A stretch of DNA of 54,041 nucleotides from a virus (taxonomy: Duplodnaviria; Caudoviricetes): positions 1 to 54,041 of the IMG/VR virus record IMGVR_UViG_3300005914_000010; one strand, 5' to 3'. Below the pieces are notes generated by a model. That model worked only from the letters and a program-made list of their open reading frames with translations. It was not told the DNA's origin and ran no database searches. A program made the translations under genes and the position numbers. This document shows, piece by piece, positions 1-53,926 of this stretch. How positions within the stretch are numbered: position 1 is the stretch's first letter; each line of letters starts with the position of its first letter.

Positions 1-32
1 TTAGGCTGAATAGACACACACAAAGAGAAACT

Positions 33-296
33 AAAATGAGTAAATTATCAAATTTCGAGAGAGAAAAAAGATACGTAGTTATAAAGCTAAAACACTTGAA
101 TGAAAAAGAAATTTTAAGTTTAGAGGGAAAGCTTGAGGCATTGAAAATACGAACAGTTGATTGTGTTGTTTACGAGTCGAAATGGCCTTGTGTTGATGCA
201 GTTTGGAAAATGGTGAAAAATTTAAGTGAAGGAAATTTCTTTAATCCTTTCGACAGGATTGCAGAGATTGAGGCTGAGAAAATGAGTAAATTATCA
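33..296 (+). repeat. 18-bp direct repeat AAAATGAGTAAATTATCA at 33-50 and 279-296
   Basis: exact match read from the sequence; both copies are followed shortly by GAGAGAGAAA. Confidence 0.85.
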
Positions 297-494
297 GAGT
301 TGAGAGAGAAACACGAATGCCAAGATCTTAAGATAATAGCAGATACAAATGGGCCATTCATAATTAATATTAAAGTTGAAATATTAAGTGAAGTCGTAGT
401 AGAATCCAAATCAATTGAATTCATAGAGGGTTACCTTGAAGGTTTCGAAGCAGCTGTAAATAGCATGTTACCTGCCCAGTGGGAAGGCGAATGA
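36..494 (+). CDS. hypothetical protein, probably two fused small ORFs (second start at 282)
   Basis: ORF track; MSKLS occurs twice, encoded by an exact 18-bp duplication. Confidence 0.65.
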   Translation: MSKLSNFEREKRYVVIKLKHLNEKEILSLEGKLEALKIRTVDCVVYESKWPCVDAVWKMVKNLSEGNFFNPFDRIAEIEAEKMSKLSELREKHECQDLKIIADTNGPFIINIKVEILSEVVVESKSIEFIEGYLEGFEAAVNSMLPAQWEGE

Positions 495-667
495 AAGAAC
501 TAGTGTAGGAAGAGATAGAGAGGGGTAAGTTAGTTGTAAATTTAGTTAAAAAATTTTTTAGGTGGGCAAGTAGGGAGAGGGCCTGATAATGGATGTTGGA
601 AGAACAAAGTATCTTTTAATGAATTCCATGGACAATAACGTCCTAACCCACGATCGAGGAGATCAAC

Positions 668-1261
668 ATGACTAACACAACTACCTTCCTTATGAATAGC
701 GTTACAATGACTGAATTACAACATGCATTCGTTACTAGATGCTTAGCTAATAACATGATTAAGACTGTTATCACTGGTCAAGACCCTGTGTACACTAAGC
801 GCCTTGTTGATGTGTGTAGCGAGATAATACGCGATAACTTCCAAGACTATGCATTATTCGAGTGTGAAGAGGATAGTTACGAGAAGAATATAGATATTGA
901 CTATCTAGAAGATCATCAAGTAGAAGCGATGTATATTGGGTATGCTATGACTAAAGAAGAGTTCTTAGTTAAGTATACTAACTGTTTTGTACCAGAGAAC
1001 CCACCACAACCAACGGAGAATACCATGACTGAGAGAACTATGATGGAAATAACAACACCTAAGACTATAGCAGAGTTGAAAGAGATTGATGATAGAATGG
1101 GCTTTGGTAATCTTCAGGATAGCGACCTGATTGACCTCCAAGGTATAATGATAGCTAATATAGATAGTGAGACATGGGAGCACACTGACGAGTTACAAGA
1201 GCTGTTTGACAAAATACAGGATATAATTAACCTTAAATTCAACTCAGTAGAAGGGGCGTAA
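668..1261 (+). CDS. early acidic hypothetical protein
   Basis: GAGGAG SD before the ATG; second in-frame GGAG+ATG at 1025. Confidence 0.75.
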   Translation: MTNTTTFLMNSVTMTELQHAFVTRCLANNMIKTVITGQDPVYTKRLVDVCSEIIRDNFQDYALFECEEDSYEKNIDIDYLEDHQVEAMYIGYAMTKEEFLVKYTNCFVPENPPQPTENTMTERTMMEITTPKTIAELKEIDDRMGFGNLQDSDLIDLQGIMIANIDSETWEHTDELQELFDKIQDIINLKFNSVEGA

Positions 1262-1263
1262 TC

Positions 1264-3393
1264 ATGACTAACTTAACCACAACCACAACATCTCGTGAAT
1301 TAACAACTATGTTCAAGTTTAAAGCAGAACAGGTATTAGATGAGTCTAAGATAATAGTTCAGAACATCGAGCATAAGTCAGCTGGCTTCATTGCTAAGCG
1401 TCTAGTAGCTGTTCTTGAGAAGAAAGGTCACCTAACACAGTTCGACCCAGAGGATATGAGTAATGAATACTTATATAGATGCGACTTTGATGTGAGAACT
1501 ATCGCCATGCTAGGTGTGCAGCTTAGTGGATTAATAGTCCACATAGATAAGCCTATGGATATTGATAAGATAGCAGATGGTACATTCGCTTATAAGATGT
1601 TCAGGAACATAGCGAGAGCTAACCGCACTATAGATGGAGTCTTTGATGAATGTTATGATAACAAGGCACATTGGGTTACTAAGGTTAGAAGAGGCCTGAA
1701 GTTAGCTATTGATGCCAATCTACTAGATGAAGAAGACGGCATGATAGTTAGATCTAAAGCCTACATATCAGGATGCATTAGTAGAAGAAGCATAGTACAT
1801 CAGACTTCACCTATCACTGACGACACTCGTCGTAAGGAACGTGTTAAGAACAAGATGCAGCCTCGTAAAGATGGCACATCTAGTAAGGTAAGAGAAGCTT
1901 TAGCTTTCATAGAAAGCCAAGGACAATCAGTAAACGTTAATCTACTAAATGTAGTGCAACAGTTTATGAAAGATAGTGTTGAATGTAACATACCTTATCC
2001 TGATGTTATACAAGACTCGCTACATGTTATTGAAGGGTGTCAAGAGCTGAGGAATGAGAATGTACTATATTCTGAGTACTTCCAAGACCTTAGAGGTAGA
2101 ATGTATCAGTTCGCACATGGTGGACCTAACCCACAATCTAGTGACTTAGCAAGAGCATTGTGTTACCATGTAGAGTCTAATATAGTACATAAGACTGATA
2201 CAGCATGTTATAGCTTATTCATGAATGAGATGACTAACGAGATAGCGAAGTGTGATTACGCTATGTTACCTCAAGTGATAACTTGGGTAGCTGAGAATCC
2301 ACTAGATGCTATAAAAGAATATTACCGTGTAGGTAGTGACCTTGGTGGAGTTAAGAAGTTCTGGACTTACTTGACACTATGTCAGGACTGGTTGAACTTC
2401 GAGACACAAGGCTTCACTGATTGTAGAATAGGCTTTGGGCCAGATGCTAAATGTTCAGGTGCACAGATACTAGCTATACTCGCTGGTTGTGAGACTATGG
2501 GAAAAGCTTGTGGATTGACTGATCAGGACAGAGGAGATGATCCATATGAGTTATCAACACAAGAAATAGTAAGATTACAACAGAGTTCTACTAGAGCTGA
2601 GTTCCGTGGAGCGTTGTTGCTAATGAGGGAAGAGATTAAGACTTGCTTTATGGCGATACAGTATGGTGGTGGTAGTGGAGTGTTAGCTGGTAGTAACGAG
2701 TTCATAATAGCAATGAACAGAATAGGTATTCCTAACCATATGAGAGATGAGTTCTGTAAGAAGATAGTTAAGAGAGGTATAATCAATGCCCTTGGTCCAA
2801 AGATCAATGCCCTGATAGAAGGTATGCAGGCAGCAGCAAAGCAGATGCAAGAAATGACTGGTAAAGACTACTTTGAGTATAAACATGTTGATGGCAACAC
2901 TTGCACTAAACGTGGTGAAGCTCAAGTTAGAATGACTGATAACCACTTCAAGATTAACTTTGGTGAAAGAGATAACGCTATTATCTTCGGAGCAACAGAA
3001 GAGAGTAGGGCAGGAGATACAGGTTGGAAGGTACAATCGCAGACTATAGATACTCTACAAAGAGCTAACTTTAGTTACTACTTCCCTGTTCACTTCATTC
3101 AAGGCCTTGATAGTGTTATAGCTAGAGAGATAGCTCTACAGGTTAAATCGAGAGGACTGAAAGGGTTTACTACGATTCATGACCAGTTTAGAGTATGCTT
3201 GAGAGATGCTCCTATAATGATGGAAGCGGTAGCAGATGCTTACAGAGTAGTATTCATACAGAATAACCCTATCAAGAAGCTTCAAGAACAAATGAGGGGA
3301 ATAGTGATAGAGACATTAAACCCACTTGAAGATACACTTCAGATAGTAACTGAGGCAGTACTTACTTCAGATAAAGCTTACTACTTCGAGTAG
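1264..3393 (+). CDS. single-subunit (T7/Chaseviridae-type) DNA-directed RNA polymerase, 709 aa
   Basis: motifs FQDLRGRMY (DxRGRxY), A DAKCSGAQ, B RxxxKxxxMxxxYGG, C IHDQF; aromatic C-terminus YYFE. Confidence 0.95.
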   Translation: MTNLTTTTTSRELTTMFKFKAEQVLDESKIIVQNIEHKSAGFIAKRLVAVLEKKGHLTQFDPEDMSNEYLYRCDFDVRTIAMLGVQLSGLIVHIDKPMDIDKIADGTFAYKMFRNIARANRTIDGVFDECYDNKAHWVTKVRRGLKLAIDANLLDEEDGMIVRSKAYISGCISRRSIVHQTSPITDDTRRKERVKNKMQPRKDGTSSKVREALAFIESQGQSVNVNLLNVVQQFMKDSVECNIPYPDVIQDSLHVIEGCQELRNENVLYSEYFQDLRGRMYQFAHGGPNPQSSDLARALCYHVESNIVHKTDTACYSLFMNEMTNEIAKCDYAMLPQVITWVAENPLDAIKEYYRVGSDLGGVKKFWTYLTLCQDWLNFETQGFTDCRIGFGPDAKCSGAQILAILAGCETMGKACGLTDQDRGDDPYELSTQEIVRLQQSSTRAEFRGALLLMREEIKTCFMAIQYGGGSGVLAGSNEFIIAMNRIGIPNHMRDEFCKKIVKRGIINALGPKINALIEGMQAAAKQMQEMTGKDYFEYKHVDGNTCTKRGEAQVRMTDNHFKINFGERDNAIIFGATEESRAGDTGWKVQSQTIDTLQRANFSYYFPVHFIQGLDSVIAREIALQVKSRGLKGFTTIHDQFRVCLRDAPIMMEAVADAYRVVFIQNNPIKKLQEQMRGIVIETLNPLEDTLQIVTEAVLTSDKAYYFE

Positions 3394-3443
3394 GCTCTTT
3401 TACAGCATCTTCTAACGAGGGTGCTGAATAAAGAGTAAGCCTA
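3391..3443 (+). promoter_or_regulatory. long imperfect hairpin, candidate RNase III processing site
   Basis: TAGGC..CAGCATCTTC-TAAC-GAGGGTGCTG..GCCTA; same size and apex as the hairpins at 6999 and 7657. Confidence 0.55.
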
Positions 3444-3449
3444 ATAACT

Positions 3450-3860
3450 ATAACACGCGGGCACACTTATACGGGCTACGCACTAAGAGTCAGACAAGCT
3501 GACCAAAAGGCCGAACCGATTGGTAGACTACCGTCCACCGAAAGGTCTAGGTTTCTCCCATTGTTACTATATGCTGGAATTAGTGATTGGTACTATGTAC
3601 TGGTTTCAATCCATATTGTAATACCCATGTTATGGCCAGCAAGCTGTCCGAAAGGAAATCTAGGGATGTGCTTATTGTAACAGTTCACGTTTAGTGACAT
3701 TACACTCGTAAGTAATCTTCCATCCTGCGAGTAACTTCCCATGGTTAGGTCATACTTAGTTAGTAGGTTAGGCCACTATAGTCACACCCAGAATGAACAT
3801 TGTTTGGCTAAACCTTATAAGTTGGCAATGGAGCCACGGGTATGAATAGTGTCTACTAAT
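3450..3860 (+). ncRNA. candidate large structured non-coding RNA
   Basis: no ORF; closing helix 3519-3528/3851-3860, two CC-GAAA-GG tetraloop hairpins, nested helices, possible pseudoknot. Confidence 0.45.
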
Positions 3861-4429
3861 TAAGTATGTCATGGGGTTACGTAATCATATGTATATTAAC
3901 TTGGCCCTAAGCGTGTATAACTAGGAAGTAGCAGATTCGATTGCTAAACACCTACACATTAGTATGTCATGTGGTTACACCATTATTTATTCATAGCATA
4001 TCATTGAGGACGAACTTGTTCGATCCGATATTAAGAGTAGAAACAAATAAAGTTCTATTCTTTAACCTACACGGTTGGTGACTCTTTGAGTATGTAATGG
4101 TGTAACAATTAACTGGAGAACCAGAATGAAGATAATAAATATTGTGGTGACGAAGATTAGTATGTCATAGGGTTACAGCGTTGAGTCGCAGACTCCCTAT
4201 GTCTTACTTTGGGTTGGCTTGTTAGTCTGAAAGAATAAGTTGGAGCAGAGCGACCCACGTACAAACTGTCAGAGAGCCATACCCACCATGAACTTGTGAT
4301 AGTATGTCCCATGGTAACAATAAAGTATGTAATATTGTCATGACACAGACCGATTAGTAACAACCTATTATATGTACTAGGGTTACGCTTTAAGTATGTC
4401 ATGGGTTATGTACCATAACATGGGGTAAC
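3861..4429 (+). repeat. cluster of ~9 copies of the 20-bp motif wwAGTATGTCATrGGGTwAC
   Basis: copies start at 3861, 3959, 4087, 4157, 4299, 4322, 4367, 4391, 4410; irregular spacing. Confidence 0.85.
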
Positions 4430-4494
4430 CTTATATTAGTTCACTTTTAAGTTATATGCTCTTTACATTTACTTAACAACCACAGGTAGAAATC

Positions 4495-4650
4495 ATGTCA
4501 AATATAACGAATAGTTTATGCTTCAAAGCTGAATGGATTAGCCCAGTCACTGGGAAGAAAGTAACAGCTTTACACTTCTCTAGTTTTACTGATCCAATTA
4601 GAGAGATACACAACAGACCTAAATTTGTAACCGTAAGGAAACGCTTCTAA
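4495..4650 (+). CDS. small hypothetical protein (51 aa, MSNITNSLCFKAEW...), not in ORF track
   Basis: AGGT SD; its stop overlaps the next start (TAATG). Confidence 0.6.
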   Translation: MSNITNSLCFKAEWISPVTGKKVTALHFSSFTDPIREIHNRPKFVTVRKRF

Positions 4651-5060
4651 TGGAAGAATTCAGAATAGCAATTGTTGGTGGTAGAGATTTCAATGATTAC
4701 AATAGGCTGAAGAAGCTTGTGGCAAATCTATTGAGAAACAAAGCGGAAACACATAAGATCATAATTGTATGTGGAATGGCAAAAGGCGCTGATCTACTAG
4801 GTAAACAATTTGGTAACGAATGTGGCTACACTGTTGAAGAGTACCATGCTAAGTGGGAAGACTTAAATACGAGACCATTACGAATTAAAACTAATCTAAA
4901 TGGACAATATAATGCTCTAGCTGGACATAATCGTAACGCTGAAATGCGAGCAGCAGCAGACGCTGTTATAGCTTTCTGGGATGGCAAGTCAAGAGGCACT
5001 AGGGAAATGATTAATGCTTGCAAGAGTGAATCTATAACATTACGAGTTTATAATTATTAA
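4650..5060 (+). CDS. SLOG-superfamily (YspA/DUF2493-like) protein
   Basis: IVGGRDFNDY, CGMAKGAD, AGHNRNAEM, AFWDGKSRGT motifs. Confidence 0.85.
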   Translation: MEEFRIAIVGGRDFNDYNRLKKLVANLLRNKAETHKIIIVCGMAKGADLLGKQFGNECGYTVEEYHAKWEDLNTRPLRIKTNLNGQYNALAGHNRNAEMRAAADAVIAFWDGKSRGTREMINACKSESITLRVYNY

Positions 5061-5776: not shown

Positions 5777-6281
5777 CAAAGTTGGTAAAATAATTTGAAG
5801 ACTGTAAGTAACAAAAAGTAGCAAAGCTACTCAAAAAGAAATTGAAGAGATGACAGAAGTAGTGTTCCTACATCTCTTAAAAGGGCAGGCATGGCTCCTC
5901 TGAAAACAAACCATGTACGAATTCGCTGTGCAGACCCGAGGTCAGGCGGCAATCATGGATAGTCTACTACATGTAAAACTAGATCGCGCTTTTAATATCT
6001 GCGTAAAATATTAATCATCGTTAAGGTGCGATGTTAAATAAATCCCCAACCCTTAGTCTAGCTGGTTTAAAATCAAGACTCGTGTCGCGGTGGGCGTTAC
6101 GTTAAGCAACATCCCACCAACATATAGCTATATATGATTGCAAGTGATTTCTATATCTAGGGAGATAACCCTATACTGTGGTATCACAAAGTCATGAACT
6201 CAGAGAATGACAAATAGCTTAATCAATTTAATTAATTTAAACAAACTTAACTAATAGAACTTAATTGTTCGGAGAAATACC

Positions 6282-48615: not shown

Positions 48616-48963
48616 ATGAATTTATCAAAATGGAAAGACGACTTTTGTCTTAGAGTAAGATTAAATAAGATTTACATATGCCCTGCTGCTATTAGATTTA
48701 TTAACAACCCCATGTCTGCTGGAAGTAAAAAGAAATATGTTAGAGGTGTATGCTCCTTTCTAAGGGCACAAGGTCTACCAAAAGAGCTTGAGAAATTTGA
48801 GCATTTGTTTGTAGAAAAGATGACTGAAGTAGTTGTAGAAGTAACTCCTGAAGTAACTCCTGAAGTAACTCCTGAAGTAACTCCTGAAGTAATTCCTGAA
48901 GTAACTCCTGAAGTAACTCCTGAAGTAACTGAAGAAAAGACTACCGAAGACGAAGAAGATTAA
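48616..48963 (+). CDS. hypothetical protein with EVTP repeat tail
   Basis: ORF track; tandem repeat. Confidence 0.7.
   Translation: MNLSKWKDDFCLRVRLNKIYICPAAIRFINNPMSAGSKKKYVRGVCSFLRAQGLPKELEKFEHLFVEKMTEVVVEVTPEVTPEVTPEVTPEVIPEVTPEVTPEVTEEKTTEDEED
48838..48930 (+). repeat. 12-bp tandem repeat GAAGTAACTCCT x7.75
   Basis: counted directly; one copy has a C>T change. Confidence 0.95.
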
Positions 48964-50605: not shown

Positions 50606-53026
50606 ATGGATTACTCCTTATTTTTTGACGGGTCCGGGTCCCTCGGTATTTCGGGGGTTAAATTACATACCAAGAGTTTTCTTACCAATTTCGAGTACGA
50701 ACTAACCGCTTTCTTTGGAAATACTGGTTATGATAAATTAACTATTGTAGGTAAAAACTTTAGTAGTAATGGTTTCATAAGCCTAACTCCCACAGCTTGC
50801 GCTATAAAACATGGTAACAAACTCGGCACCATTGTTACCATTCCTATTACCCTTAGTTTTAATGACACTACACAAGTCATTAAAATAACTAGAAACGGTA
50901 GCAACTATACAGTTCTCAGTGATGGCGTTTCAATCGGTTCTAAAACAGCCTCACCATCGAATAATGAAAATTTACTAGACCGTATAGGTTCATCTGGATT
51001 TTCAGACAACAGCGACGGCAACAGAATACAAAGACTGATATACCGCGAGGGTTCACCATTAGTAGATGTCCACGACTGGGATGCTAGTTCTAGTGGCGGT
51101 ACGGGTACTACGATTACCGACTCAATTGGTGGCAATACCGCAACTCAGATAGGTACATGGCCAGCAGATGATAGCGAGTGGTATTTAGAAGGAGGGGCAG
51201 CCGTTCCTGTCGGAGTCCCGTCAATCGGTACGATCACAAAAACCGAGACAACCGCTTCAATCCCTTGGACTTACACAGATGGCGACGAAACCGGTTTTGA
51301 ATATCGACTAGATGCAGGGACTATTATAGATGCAGGGACAAGCCCATTATCATTAACAGGGCTGACAGCCAGCACTTCGTACGATGTTGAAATTAGGGCG
51401 TATAACGCAACTGGTGATGGTAGTTGGTCGAGTGTTACAGCGTTTACTACTGAAGATGCGGCAGTGGTTACAGAGGGTAACTTAGCAGTACAAATGGTAA
51501 GTAATACGGTATCTGCGATTGGTATAATAGGCCAAGCCGTGACAGGTCAACTGGATAAGTCATTAGATATAAATGAGCTTAACTCAGACGGTATAATAGG
51601 CCAGTCTATATTAGGGGGCCTAGACGGGTTACTTGAATCAGATAACTTATTTTCTCAAGGGGAAATAGGTCAAGCGATATCGGGATCTCTCAGTGAGTTA
51701 CTAAACAGCAGCTCTTTAACATCAGTGGGTGTTATAGGAAGTGATATAGTAGGTGTGCTAAGTGGGCAGATAAGTAATAGTACCCTTATAGCAGGGGGTT
51801 CCATTGGACAAGCTATAGTAGGGGCACTAAGTAGACAACTTGATATCAATATATCAAATATAGATGGAACCGTAGGGTCGGCAATACTGGGTTCTATGAA
51901 TGTAGAATTCGATGACACTATATTGATATCTGACGGTACTATTGGTCAGGCTATAGCAGGCTCTATAAGTGAATTATTAGAAGACAATACATCTTCTATA
52001 TCAGGAGTTGTAGGTCAAGCTATTACTGGAGCATTGAACAAACTATTAGATAATAGTACTCTTACTTCGAGTGGAATTATAGGCCAAGCCATAACAGGTG
52101 CTCTAAATGAATTACTAACAAGTAACAAATTAACGGCAAGTGGTGTTATAGGTCAAGCAATAGTAGGCTCGTTGAGTGAGCTACTAGAAGATAATAATCC
52201 ATCCATAGCTGGGGTTGTAGGTGAAGCTATAGTTGCAACACTAAATGCCCAACTAGATGGTGATACTATAGATGCCAATGGTGTCATAGGGCAAGCAATA
52301 CTAGGAGCGTTAAGTGAACAACTAGACGTAAATACACTTAGCTCAACTGGTGTAGTAGGCAACGCCATTGCAGGCTCTTTAAGCATACAATTAGATGATA
52401 CTATATTGTTAGCTGACGGTATAATAGGCCAAGCAATAAATGCTACCTTGAATGCAAACAACGCTGATAATAAATCTACTATAATTGGGACTATTGGACA
52501 AGCAATATTAGGAGCATTAAGTGAACAACTCGATGTAGATATACTTAGTGCCACTGGTACTATAGGTAGTGACATTGCTGGTTCACTTAGTATTAAATTA
52601 GATAACAACATATTATTAGCGAATGGAGTGATAGGTCAAGCAATAATTGCTACTCTAAATACTACAAATGCTGATAATACATCTGTTATAATTGGGACTA
52701 TTGGGCAAGCTATTGCAGGTACTTTGGAAATAGATGCAGAAGATGTTAACCTAGAAGCACTTGGTGTTACAGGAATAATATCTGGAAGTGTCAATATCCA
52801 GCTAGAAGATGGTACATTATTATCCGCTGGCTTCTTAGGCTTGATAACTGTAGGCTGTAATGATATATCAATAAGTTTCGAATTTGTAAACCCTGATATA
52901 AATATTGACGCTGGGCAACTAATAAGTTTCGAATTTGTAAACCCTGATATAAATATTGACGCTGGGCAACTAATAAGCAACAAAGAAGAAGCAGACATAA
53001 ATATAGGAGATGTACTATGCGTTTAA
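50606..53026 (+). CDS. virion appendage protein: lectin/LamG-like domain, FN3 domain, 23-aa repeat stalk
   Basis: FN3 signature W..Y..LTGL..T.Y.VEIRA.N..G.GSWS; ~18 GxIGQAIxG repeats. Confidence 0.75.
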   Translation: MDYSLFFDGSGSLGISGVKLHTKSFLTNFEYELTAFFGNTGYDKLTIVGKNFSSNGFISLTPTACAIKHGNKLGTIVTIPITLSFNDTTQVIKITRNGSNYTVLSDGVSIGSKTASPSNNENLLDRIGSSGFSDNSDGNRIQRLIYREGSPLVDVHDWDASSSGGTGTTITDSIGGNTATQIGTWPADDSEWYLEGGAAVPVGVPSIGTITKTETTASIPWTYTDGDETGFEYRLDAGTIIDAGTSPLSLTGLTASTSYDVEIRAYNATGDGSWSSVTAFTTEDAAVVTEGNLAVQMVSNTVSAIGIIGQAVTGQLDKSLDINELNSDGIIGQSILGGLDGLLESDNLFSQGEIGQAISGSLSELLNSSSLTSVGVIGSDIVGVLSGQISNSTLIAGGSIGQAIVGALSRQLDINISNIDGTVGSAILGSMNVEFDDTILISDGTIGQAIAGSISELLEDNTSSISGVVGQAITGALNKLLDNSTLTSSGIIGQAITGALNELLTSNKLTASGVIGQAIVGSLSELLEDNNPSIAGVVGEAIVATLNAQLDGDTIDANGVIGQAILGALSEQLDVNTLSSTGVVGNAIAGSLSIQLDDTILLADGIIGQAINATLNANNADNKSTIIGTIGQAILGALSEQLDVDILSATGTIGSDIAGSLSIKLDNNILLANGVIGQAIIATLNTTNADNTSVIIGTIGQAIAGTLEIDAEDVNLEALGVTGIISGSVNIQLEDGTLLSAGFLGLITVGCNDISISFEFVNPDINIDAGQLISFEFVNPDINIDAGQLISNKEEADINIGDVLCV
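51521..52760 (+). repeat. ~18 degenerate 69-bp (23-aa) coding repeats
   Basis: G[IVT][IV]GQAIxGxL recurs every 23 residues. Confidence 0.85.
52870..52977 (+). repeat. exact 51-bp tandem duplication
   Basis: 52870-52920 equals 52921-52971 (ISFEFVNPDINIDAGQL x2). Confidence 0.95.
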
Positions 53027-53668: not shown

Positions 53669-53926
53669 CAGAGTACACCACTCTCCCACTTTTTGAGGTC
53701 GCGCATACAATGGCTTGGCTTTCATATAGTGACAGAGAGTGGGCCGCTGTAGCCCATACAAGGCAAGGGCTGCGAGACGCCCAGAGCTGACCTCTATGGG
53801 CCACTTTTTAATGCATTACGATGGTCTAAAATGTGTTAAAAAGTGTGTCATTTGGACACTGATGTTGCAGTATCACATCAAAAATAACAGAAACTGAAAT
53901 AAATACTTCAAAACTTAGGAAATTCG

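What the first reader, a model, noticed from the sequence alone, without database searches (positions are those of the whole stretch)
3861..4429. Cluster of ~9 copies of a 20-bp motif directly downstream of the phage RNAP gene: candidate promoters, RNAP-primed origin or small-RNA array
Seen: TAAGTATGTCATGGGGTTAC (3861), TTAGTATGTCATGTGGTTAC (3959), TGAGTATGTAATGGTGTAAC (4087), TTAGTATGTCATAGGGTTAC (4157), ATAGTATGTCCCATGGTAAC (4299), ATTATATGTACTAGGGTTAC (4367), TAAGTATGTCATGGGTTATG (4391), with weaker copies at 4322 and 4410. Start-to-start spacings are 98, 128, 70, 142, 23, 45, 24 and 19 nt, and an AT-rich tract follows (4430-4480). By eye I found no good copies ahead of middle or late genes. 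Known: in T7 the primary origin sits just after the RNAP gene as tandem phage promoters plus an AT-rich tract. From memory, promoters for Chaseviridae RNAPs have not been identified. Inference: these may be short promoters (about 12 nt upstream of a G-rich start) for this truncated RNAP. The enzyme would then serve replication priming, genome entry or synthesis of structured RNAs rather than general gene expression. Alternatives are iterons or packaging/terminal-repeat signals.
Basis: partly seen in the sequence, partly recalled or inferred. Interest (0 to 1): 0.82.

Follow-up and report, generated by a model that had tools for sequence, protein, structure and literature searches.

The report
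Repeat array at phage terminal-repeat boundary
A phage of the Chaseviridae type carries eight same-direction copies of an 18-20 bp motif in the non-coding DNA after its RNA polymerase gene; relatives have matching arrays where their long terminal repeat ends, so it looks more like a genome-end signal than the polymerase's promoters.

Summary
There are seven strong copies and one weaker copy of AGTATGTCATGGGGTTAC, all on the + strand. They lie only in 3861-4410, inside a 1.1-kb non-coding gap after the RNAP gene.

The array is conserved across the family. A homologous core, G[CT]ATG[TA] followed about 12 nt later by GTNAC, is enriched on the + strand of the same gap in 10 of 12 genomes. It is essentially absent from the rest of the whole genomes scanned.

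In 5 of 6 relatives with defined ends, the ~3-kb direct terminal repeat ends inside the array or 75-102 nt before its dense part. A conserved block places the window's repeat end near 4265-4280, between the sparse and dense copies. This is an inference.

Relatives also carry a different, dispersed, promoter-like motif. The array is therefore probably not the general RNAP promoter.

Best reading, p≈0.4: a protein-binding array that helps form or package the genome end at the inner repeat boundary. Rivals are specialised RNAP promoters or a primed origin (0.2), iterons (0.15), an entry-pause signal (0.1) and an operator array (0.1).

No experiment exists. The reads available were contigs only.

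The parts
1264..3393 (+). Single-subunit RNA polymerase gene (709 aa). This is context; in relatives the gene lies inside the long terminal repeat.
   Evidence: Pfam RNA_pol, 28.2 bits. 46% aa identity to Chaseviridae RNAPs. The catalytic D, K, Y-G and H-D columns are invariant in the alignment with T7 RNAP.
3394..3440 (+). Strong nested hairpin directly after the RNAP stop codon. It could be a terminator, a processing site or a stabilising element.
   Evidence: 3394-3540 folds at -42.9 kcal/mol, z = -3.67, with 0 of 200 shuffles as stable. L018 has a hairpin at the same place.
3495..3655 (+). Two copies of CAAGCTGNCCRAAAGG (3495-3510 and 3640-3655), plus blocks conserved with L018. This is the first part of the gap, with no forward motif copies.
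   Evidence: These two are the only matches with 0 mismatches in the window.
3861..4176 (+). Sparse group of four best motif copies: 3861-3880, 3959-3978, 4087-4106 and 4157-4176, with spacings 98, 128 and 70. By homology they are predicted to lie inside the terminal repeat.
   Evidence: PWM 24.7-30.1 bits. The copy at 4157 aligns with an L018 copy.
4183..4195 (+). Small hairpin GAGTC-GCA-GACTC, 7 nt after the copy at 4157.
   Evidence: L018 has GTGTC-GTA-GACAC at the aligned place, so both sides of one pair changed together.
4229..4280 (+). Purine-rich conserved block ending in GAGCGAC (4248-4254), plus the inferred right end of the direct terminal repeat at about 4265-4280.
   Evidence: The block is shared with L018, ZPAH14 and LA93P1. 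In ZPAH14 the duplicated record end stops 15 nt after it. The position in the window is inference only.
4299..4429 (+). Dense group of motif copies: 4299-4318, 4322-4341 (weaker), 4367-4386 and 4391-4410, with spacings 23, 45 and 24. A partial inverted copy lies at 4410-4429.
   Evidence: PWM 24.2, 12.7, 21.2 and 22.2 bits. The copy at 4299 aligns with L018 6778.
4430..4494 (+). AT-rich leader before the first gene of the unique region (ATG at 4495). It is conserved with L018.
   Evidence: 72% AT, in the top 3.3% of windows. Aligned block TAAGTTA.ATGCT..TTA.ATTTACT.AACA.
53842..53861 (+). One weak motif-like copy (AAAGTGTGTCATTTGGACAC) in the non-coding end of the record, upstream of the RNAP operon.
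   Evidence: 9.6 bits, within the chance range. It was the only intergenic match outside the gap. In the relatives where I inspected it, a motif-like element lies 55-60 nt before the left repeat boundary.

Best explanation
The motif copies are binding sites for a sequence-specific DNA-binding protein, presumably phage-encoded. Together they form a single-locus cis-acting array that straddles the inner (right) boundary of the long direct terminal repeat. The most likely job is forming the genome end. In concatemeric DNA, the packaging or end-forming machinery (terminase small subunit or a partner) would assemble on the co-oriented array. It would then cut at the purine-rich block between the sparse copies (3861-4176) and the dense copies (4299-4410). 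That cut creates the right end of the virion DNA.

Shown:
- The array is real and conserved across the family.
- It is strand-specific and confined to this locus.
- The repeat end sits next to it in relatives.
- A separate promoter-like motif exists in relatives.

Inferred:
- The repeat end in this window lies near 4265-4280.
- A protein binds the motif.
- That protein belongs to the packaging or end-forming system.
For: 1. It is a single locus.
- In the window, PWM hits above 20 bits occur only at 3861-4410 on the + strand.
- The family pattern GYATGWNAY-N3-4-GTNAC hits only the post-RNAP gap in the whole records of ZPAH14 and Myduc: 9 forward hits, one of them the duplicated repeat copy, and 0 reverse. 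PM1, pAh6-C and Spp001 gave no hit.
- GCATGTMANNNNGT gives 10 of 11 forward hits in the gap across 5 whole Cleopatravirinae genomes.

2. It is conserved across the family.
- The core G[CT]ATG[TA] is enriched on the + strand of the gap in 10 of 12 genomes at p<0.05, with 105 forward and 5 reverse copies in the gaps.
- The closest relative, L018 (RNAP 54% aa identity), has the same AGTATGTCATGGGG motif, with copies that align in order.

3. The repeat end sits at the array.
- The last 3373 nt of the ZPAH14 record repeat its first 3373 nt. That end falls between core copies at -80 and +45.
- In PM1 (2665) and in Myduc, 4HA13 and Mangalitsa (PhageTerm annotations 3202, 3120, 3234), the first copy of the dense cluster lies +75 to +102 after the end.
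- A purine-rich tract precedes the end in all five.
- The GAGCGAC block at window 4248-4254 matches the ZPAH14 block that lies 15 nt before that end.

4. It is not the general promoter.
- Relatives carry a different dispersed + strand motif. In PP101 it is CATTAGTWGGAAGTGA, 11 forward and 1 reverse.
- In Myduc it is CATTAGTTGAnAGTGA, 12 forward and 1 reverse.
- In ZPAH14 it is a hairpin plus AAAAGAAAGTGA, 6 forward and 0 reverse.

5. There are precedents for repeat arrays beside packaging cuts or terminal repeats.
- The T7 record shows the CCTAAAG array at 175-341, right after the 160-bp repeat.
- The P1 and SPP1 pac sites are recalled from memory only.
Against: - Nobody has mapped this phage's ends. 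The only reads available were contigs whose depth is uninformative.
- PYps23T's sequenced repeat end (2339) lies 410 nt before its dense cluster.
- There is no comparable array at the left repeat boundary, only one motif-like element 55-60 nt upstream in the relatives inspected.
- The purine-rich tract occurs at both boundaries, so it may be the actual cut determinant rather than the motif.
- Motif columns are more conserved than the rest of the gap in only 3 of 6 pairs.
- In this window no dispersed promoter-like motif was found. The RNAP therefore still lacks any other candidate promoter here.
- No binding protein is identified.
Confidence: 0.4

Rival explanations
1. The copies are promoters for the phage's own single-subunit RNAP. 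This is a specialised promoter bank at the repeat boundary. It would launch rightward transcription of the unique region and might also prime replication or pull the genome in, like T7 phi1.1A/B or phiOL.
For: - All copies point the same way as the genes and sit upstream of the first gene of the unique region.
- No sigma-70-like promoter lies in the last 350 nt of the gap.
- No other repeated intergenic motif was found in this window.
- The layout could fit a short T7-type promoter: a G[CT]ATG[TA] block, a spacer that is AT-rich in Cleopatravirinae, then G of GTNAC.
- T7 has phage promoters both after gene 1 and just inside the left repeat.
- T7 RNAP pausing at the concatemer junction is said to start packaging (PMC3276506, passage read). 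Promoter and end-formation roles could therefore coexist.
Against: - Relatives with the homologous array also have a separate dispersed promoter-like motif. One RNAP recognising two unrelated consensus sequences is unlikely.
- The motif occurs at one locus only, in every whole genome scanned.
- The distance between the two blocks varies by 1 nt.
- In this window the would-be melting region is G-rich.
- The specificity-loop comparison was uninformative.
Confidence: 0.2
2. The copies are iterons of a replication origin, bound by an initiator or helicase loader. The adjacent AT-rich leader would serve as the unwinding element.
For: - Direct repeats of 18-20 bp lie next to an AT-rich tract.
- The position matches T7's primary origin after gene 1. 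The origin itself is recalled from memory; the promoters are.
Against: - Spacings are irregular (19-142 nt) with no helical phasing.
- The AT-rich tract is only 72% AT.
- Cumulative GC skew is monotonic with no turning point.
- No initiator gene was identified. I did not annotate the replication genes.
Confidence: 0.15
3. The array is a DNA-entry pause or anchor signal, like the injection stop signal in the untranslated part of T5's left terminal repeat. It would hold the genome after the repeat, which carries the RNAP gene, has entered.
For: - A large untranslated, repeat-rich region lies at the inner end of a long terminal repeat whose main gene is an early function.
- The T5 signal is described this way in the abstract of bioRxiv 10.1101/866236 (abstract and outline read).
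Against: - None of the papers I read (ICTV profile in full; passages of the others) mentions two-step entry in Chaseviridae.
- There are no DnaA boxes in the gap: 3 in the window, all elsewhere, below the chance level of 7.4.
- The dense copies lie outside the repeat.
Confidence: 0.1
4. The array is a set of operators for a phage or host transcription regulator. It would switch the promoters at the start of the unique region on or off.
For: - In relatives the dispersed promoter-like motif also occurs within or next to the array: Myduc 3768, ZPAH14 3510.
- Some copies sit in local palindromes.
- GTWAC is enriched threefold throughout the gap, p = 0.001.
Against: - The copies are direct rather than inverted, and there are many of them.
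- No regulator is identified.
- This reading does not explain why the repeat end keeps a fixed offset to the array.
Confidence: 0.1

Closest known systems
T7 short-repeat array (CCTAAAG repeats, 'SRL') and phiOL just inside the left terminal repeat
   Same: Both are co-oriented short repeats in non-coding DNA, directly internal to the left direct terminal repeat and before the first genes. In the T7 record the array is at 175-341, after the 160-bp repeat, and phiOL is at 405.
   Different: T7's unit is 7 bp, spaced every 13 nt, beside a 160-bp repeat. Here the unit is 18-20 bp with irregular spacing (19-142 nt), and it straddles the end of a repeat of roughly 3-4 kb that contains the RNAP gene. 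The function of the T7 array is itself unsettled; that statement and the name SRL are recalled.
pac sites with repeated terminase-binding boxes on both sides of the cut (P1, SPP1)
   Same: Each is a unique site in the genome, with several oriented repeats on each side of a cleavage point. Here there are 4 copies, then the inferred end, then 4 copies.
   Different: Those phages package by headful and have permuted ends. Chaseviridae have exact long terminal repeats (PMC12842549). The array here spans 570 bp. This comparison is recalled from memory; I did not examine those sequences.
T7-type phage RNAP promoters and the T7 primary origin after gene 1
   Same: The position directly downstream of the RNAP gene and the orientation with the genes both match. 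In T7, phi1.1A at 5848 and phi1.1B at 5923 follow gene 1, which ends at 5822.
   Different: T7 promoters are dispersed through the genome, whereas this motif occurs at one locus only. Relatives have another, dispersed, candidate promoter motif.
T5 injection stop signal region in the left terminal repeat
   Same: Both are large untranslated regions full of repeats near the inner end of a long terminal repeat that carries pre-early genes (bioRxiv 10.1101/866236, abstract read).
   Different: The T5 region is built around DnaA boxes and palindromes, and there are no DnaA boxes here. Two-step entry is not known for Chaseviridae.

Membership tests
T7-type single-subunit RNAP promoter | Conserved motif of about 17-23 bp, co-oriented with the genes it serves | tested here: met
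   Eight + strand copies and no strong reverse copy. All long ORFs are on the + strand.
T7-type single-subunit RNAP promoter | Copies dispersed in front of gene groups across the genome | tested here: not met
   No copy above 13 bits outside 3861-4410. Homologous motifs are confined to the same gap in whole relatives.
T7-type single-subunit RNAP promoter | It is the phage-specific motif of the genome, with no better candidate | tested here: inconclusive
   No other dispersed motif was found in the window. Relatives do have a distinct dispersed promoter-like motif.
T7-type single-subunit RNAP promoter | RNAP-dependent transcription start at a fixed position in the motif | not testable with these tools
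   No RNA run was listed among the holders.
Terminase recognition / end-formation site (pac- or cos-like) | A unique site in the genome | tested here: met
Terminase recognition / end-formation site (pac- or cos-like) | Lies at or next to a mature genome end | tested here: inconclusive
   Met in 5 of 6 relatives with defined repeat ends; PYps23T is the exception. For the window it is only inferred from the conserved block. Contig depth was uninformative.
Terminase recognition / end-formation site (pac- or cos-like) | Bound by the small terminase subunit and needed for cutting and packaging | not testable with these tools
   This needs binding and packaging assays.
Iteron-type replication origin | Direct repeats with regular, helically phased spacing next to an AT-rich unwinding element | tested here: not met
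   Spacings are 98, 128, 70, 142, 23, 45 and 24 nt. The AT-rich tract is only 72% AT.
Iteron-type replication origin | A cognate initiator protein encoded nearby | not tested
   Neighbouring small ORFs have no family apart from a YspA/SLOG domain in 4650-5060.
T5-like injection stop region | Untranslated repeat-rich region inside the left terminal repeat | tested here: inconclusive
   The sparse copies are inferred to lie inside the repeat and the dense copies outside it.
T5-like injection stop region | Ordered series of DnaA boxes | tested here: not met
   TTWTNCACA gives 3 matches in the window, none in the gap, against 7.4 expected.

The most novel reading that the evidence does not exclude
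In this family the ends of the long terminal repeat may be set by the phage RNAP together with this array. The motif would be a second, specialised class of RNAP recognition site found only at the repeat boundaries. RNAP starting or stalling there, over the purine-rich tract about 55 nt downstream, would recruit the terminase or prime the DNA synthesis that duplicates the repeat. In the window's clade, which shows no dispersed promoter, this could be the enzyme's main role.
Probability: 0.12. Interest if true: 0.85.

Novelty: new variant of a known kind. Interest (0 to 1): 0.55.

Why it matters
How phages with long exact terminal repeats define and duplicate their ends is poorly understood. 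Chaseviridae combine such repeats with a T7-like RNAP whose promoters the ICTV profile calls unidentified.

This work adds two testable leads:
- A conserved, oriented motif array keeps a fixed relation to the repeat's inner end. That gives a concrete cis element to mutate and a bait for finding the protein that recognises it.
- In relatives a separate dispersed motif is the better promoter candidate. The two can now be told apart with purified RNAP.

For genome annotation, the array and the conserved block also predict where the repeat ends in uncultured members.

Tried and rejected
- **Structured RNA.** No tRNA. No Rfam family at gathering threshold; I did not run the E-value mode. Five inter-motif segments fold no better than shuffles. 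I rejected the small-RNA-array reading.
- **Coding.** The ORFs overlapping the array (3941-4081 +, 4157-4402 -) have no PHROG match, and the - strand ORF has no counterpart in L018. Rejected.
- **Host sigma-70 promoters.** The scan found fewer matches than in shuffles and none at motif copies on the + strand. This holds for the window, Myduc and PM1.
- **Other promoter motifs in the window.**
  - Whole-genome pair scans and intergenic scans found nothing beyond chance. The top intergenic family spanned 6 gaps, against 5-6 in shuffles.
  - GATAAAGNTATAGC matches look like coding-sequence similarity, judged from their context; I did not map them to ORFs.
  - TTAYWATGCT and CTTCTAACGAGGG gave nothing useful. 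TTAYWATGCT was at chance level. CTTCTAACGAGGG gave 17 matches against 8.5 expected, but all except its source copy at 3409 carry 3 mismatches and lie on both strands.
  - The dispersed motifs of relatives are not found in the window.
- **RNAP specificity loop against motif variants.** The loop differs between clades, but so does everything else. The window and L018 share the motif yet differ at the position aligned with T7 N748 (N against D). Uninformative.
- **Conservation of motif columns against spacers.** Significant in only 3 of 6 pairs.
- **Sequencing runs.** No RNA holder was listed. The four DNA runs I laid (of five listed), all labelled salt-lake metagenome, are held as contigs only and carry identical sequence. 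Depth is one figure per contig, so no coverage step or read-start pile-up could be read.
- **Closer relatives.** A single-protein search of IMG/VR found none. A profile search found five loci, of which two were new.
- **Papers.** The GJ1 genome paper is not held, so I cannot say whether it describes these repeats. The figure of PMC6989608 with the predicted PP101 promoter consensus is not held either, and supplements are closed.
- **ORF 668-1261.** It is not the missing N-terminal part of the RNAP. It is a separate conserved gene.

Full report
**What the window is.** The window is a whole IMG/VR virus record of 54,041 bp, classed as linear with no end repeats and estimated complete by CheckV. 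ORF 1264-3393 is a single-subunit RNA polymerase (Pfam RNA_pol). Its best relatives, at 44-47% aa identity, are RNAPs of Chaseviridae infecting Aeromonas, Vibrio and Shewanella. The catalytic columns are shared with T7 RNAP. A greedy non-overlapping set of 69 + strand ORFs covers 89% of the record (- strand ORFs were not called). The largest non-coding gap, 1,101 bp at 3394-4494, follows the RNAP gene.

**Checking the observation.**
- The consensus with up to 3 mismatches occurs 4 times against 0.02 expected.
- A PWM built from the seven main copies scores them 21-30 bits. That part is circular. The copy at 4322 scores 12.7 bits, and nothing outside the cluster on either strand exceeds 11.4 bits.
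- The nine hits above 8 bits elsewhere match what shuffles give.
- The 4410 'copy' is not a forward copy.
- No tRNA and no Rfam family at gathering threshold.
- ORFs overlapping the array have no PHROG family, and the - strand ORF is not conserved in L018.

**The array is a family feature.** All eleven relatives have a 1.0-1.8 kb gap after the RNAP gene. Each gap holds its own over-represented words on the + strand. These words are variants of one bipartite motif:

| Group | Motif |
|---|---|
| Window and L018 | AGTATGTCAT-GGG-GTTAC |
| Aeromonas phages | GTATGAGAC-N3-4-GTNAC |
| Cleopatravirinae (Myduc, PM1, PP101, MLP1) | GCATGTAA-N4-GTGAC |
| Shewanella phages | a GTGTGAC variant |

- The six-base core G[CT]ATG[TA] is enriched on the + strand of the gap in 10 of 12 genomes (Fisher p from 3e-7 to 0.035). 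It is not enriched in the two Shewanella phages. Gap copies number 105 forward and 5 reverse.
- The closest relative is the IMG/VR contig L018 (RNAP 54% identical). It carries the same AGTATGTCATGGGG motif. Its gap aligns block by block with the window's, including individual copies (4157 with 6628, 4299 with 6778). A small hairpin after the 4157 copy keeps pairing through a change on both sides.
- Motif columns are more conserved than the rest of the gap in only 3 of 6 pairs, because the whole gap is conserved.

**It is a single-locus element.** The degenerate family pattern hits only the gap in the whole records of ZPAH14 and Myduc, and gives nothing in PM1, pAh6-C or Spp001. A stricter Cleopatravirinae pattern gives 10 of 11 forward hits in the gap across five whole genomes, plus 2 reverse hits elsewhere.

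**Relation to the terminal repeat.**
- The ICTV profile (whole text read) says the family has terminal repeats of about 3 kbp and that the RNAP promoters are unidentified.
- The repeat contains the RNAP gene and ends inside the post-RNAP gap: Myduc 1-3202, 4HA13 1-3120 and Mangalitsa 1-3234 (PhageTerm annotations), PM1 1-2665 and ZPAH14 1-3373 (record ends duplicated at 100%).
- In the four Cleopatravirinae, the nearest upstream core copy lies 125-199 nt before the end, and the dense cluster starts +75 to +102 after it.
- In ZPAH14 the end lies within the array, between copies at -80 and +45.
- PYps23T, whose 2,339-bp repeat was sequenced directly (PMC8762354, passages read), is an exception. 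Its dense cluster starts at +410.
- A purine-rich tract precedes the end in the other five.
- The block ending GAGCGAC at window 4248-4254 is shared with L018, ZPAH14 and LA93P1. In ZPAH14 the repeat ends 15 nt after it.
- By homology, the window's repeat would end near 4265-4280. That is exactly between the widely spaced copies (3861-4157) and the tightly spaced ones (4299-4410). This is inference. The contig-only reads could not test it.
- Near the left repeat boundary, relatives have one motif-like element 55-60 nt upstream, then AAATTTT and a G-rich tract. The window has one weak copy at 53842, at chance level.

**Promoters or not.** Scanning whole relatives changed that.
- PP101 has CATTAGTWGGAAGTGA at 11 + strand sites and 1 - strand site, spread from 356 to 42396.
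- Myduc has CATTAGTTGA.AGTGAAGAAA at 12 + strand sites and 1 - strand site.
- ZPAH14 has a hairpin followed by AAAAGAAAGTGA at 6 + strand sites.
- Several of these sit just upstream of start codons, and one sits at the end of the array.
- This dispersed motif is probably what the PP101 authors meant by eight predicted promoters 'throughout the genome' (PMC6989608, passages read). The figure with the sequence is not held, so I cannot confirm that.
- It is not sigma-70-like by my reading of the printed sites.
- If that motif is the RNAP promoter, the array is something else. One RNAP is unlikely to read two unrelated consensus sequences.
- The caveat is that the window itself shows no dispersed motif by the same methods. 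Its RNAP therefore has no other candidate promoter.

**Other readings tested.**
- Inter-motif segments are not structured.
- There are no DnaA boxes in the gap.
- The AT-rich tract is modest and GC skew is monotonic.
- Spacings show no helical phasing.
- A strong hairpin follows the RNAP stop codon (z = -3.67).
- GTWAC is enriched threefold across the whole gap.

**Verdict.** The best-supported reading is a protein-binding array that marks and serves the inner end of the terminal repeat, most likely in end formation or packaging (about 0.4). The rivals are specialised RNAP promoters or a primed origin (0.2), iterons (0.15), a T5-like entry pause signal (0.1; T5 described in the abstract of bioRxiv 10.1101/866236) and an operator array (0.1).

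The nearest known layouts are in T7: the CCTAAAG array and phiOL just inside the left repeat, and the reported role of paused T7 RNAP at the concatemer junction in starting packaging (PMC3276506, passage read). A combined RNAP-plus-terminase mechanism is therefore not excluded.

My searches for a description of this array or of proven Chaseviridae promoters found none in the text I could read. The GJ1 paper and all supplements were out of reach.

Noticed in passing
PP101 whole record (L027-L029), Myduc (L033-L035), ZPAH14 (L030-L032): A dispersed, + strand, promoter-like motif distinct from the array. PP101: CATTAGTWGGAAGTGA, 11 forward and 1 reverse. Myduc: CATTAGTTGA.AGTGAAGAAA, 12 forward and 1 reverse. 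ZPAH14: hairpin GGCTCTnnCGAGCC plus AAAAGAAAGTGA, 6 forward. It is a likely candidate for the family's unidentified RNAP promoters.
   Followed up: partly
window 3394-3440: Strong nested hairpin right after the RNAP stop codon (z = -3.67 for 3394-3540). L018 has one at the same place. It has no U-run, so it is more likely a processing or stabilising element than an intrinsic terminator.
   Followed up: partly
window 668-1261: The ORF directly upstream of the RNAP gene (stop at 1261, RNAP start at 1264) is conserved in L018 (35% identity, E = 3e-35). It is not similar to the N-terminal extension of Aeromonas-phage RNAPs and has no Pfam or PHROG family. It could be an RNAP partner.
   Followed up: partly
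RNAP alignment A3 (window 1264-3393 against T7 gene 1): By alignment, all Chaseviridae RNAPs lack two T7 stretches. One I recall as the promoter-melting hairpin (about residues 228-243). The other is a stretch of about 35 residues in the N-terminal domain. The alignment is at 17% identity, so this is uncertain.
   Followed up: no
L001 (Myduc) 2767-3202: An exact 218-nt tandem duplication whose second copy ends exactly at the annotated terminal-repeat end (3202). It may be real or an artefact of assembly or annotation.
   Followed up: no
ZPAH14, Spp001, SppYZU05, pAh6-C, LA93P1, L019 (upstream of the RNAP gene): A strongly conserved left-boundary module: AAATTTT, a G-rich tract, GTTGTTGAAT, then GATGGGACCCGTTCC. 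The ZPAH14 left end lies 11 nt before GGGACCC. The window and L018 lack it.
   Followed up: partly
window 1 (start of record): Logan's own contig in run X1 starts at the same base as the IMG/VR record (record coordinate equals window coordinate). The record start may therefore be a real break or end in the data rather than an arbitrary cut.
   Followed up: no
window 3962-4000 (run X3): A low-depth 226-nt contig carries the motif copy at 3959 in a different sequence context, with 4 differences. This suggests a second related phage in that sample.
   Followed up: no
window 48800-48955 and 52870-52971: A 12-nt tandem repeat (CTGAAGTAACTC) lies inside an ORF. An exact 51-nt tandem duplication lies inside the 806-aa ORF 50606-53026, which also has 69-nt periodic repeats.
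   Followed up: no
window 4650-5060: The second gene after the array encodes a YspA/SLOG-family domain (PF10686, E = 2.6e-10).
   Followed up: no
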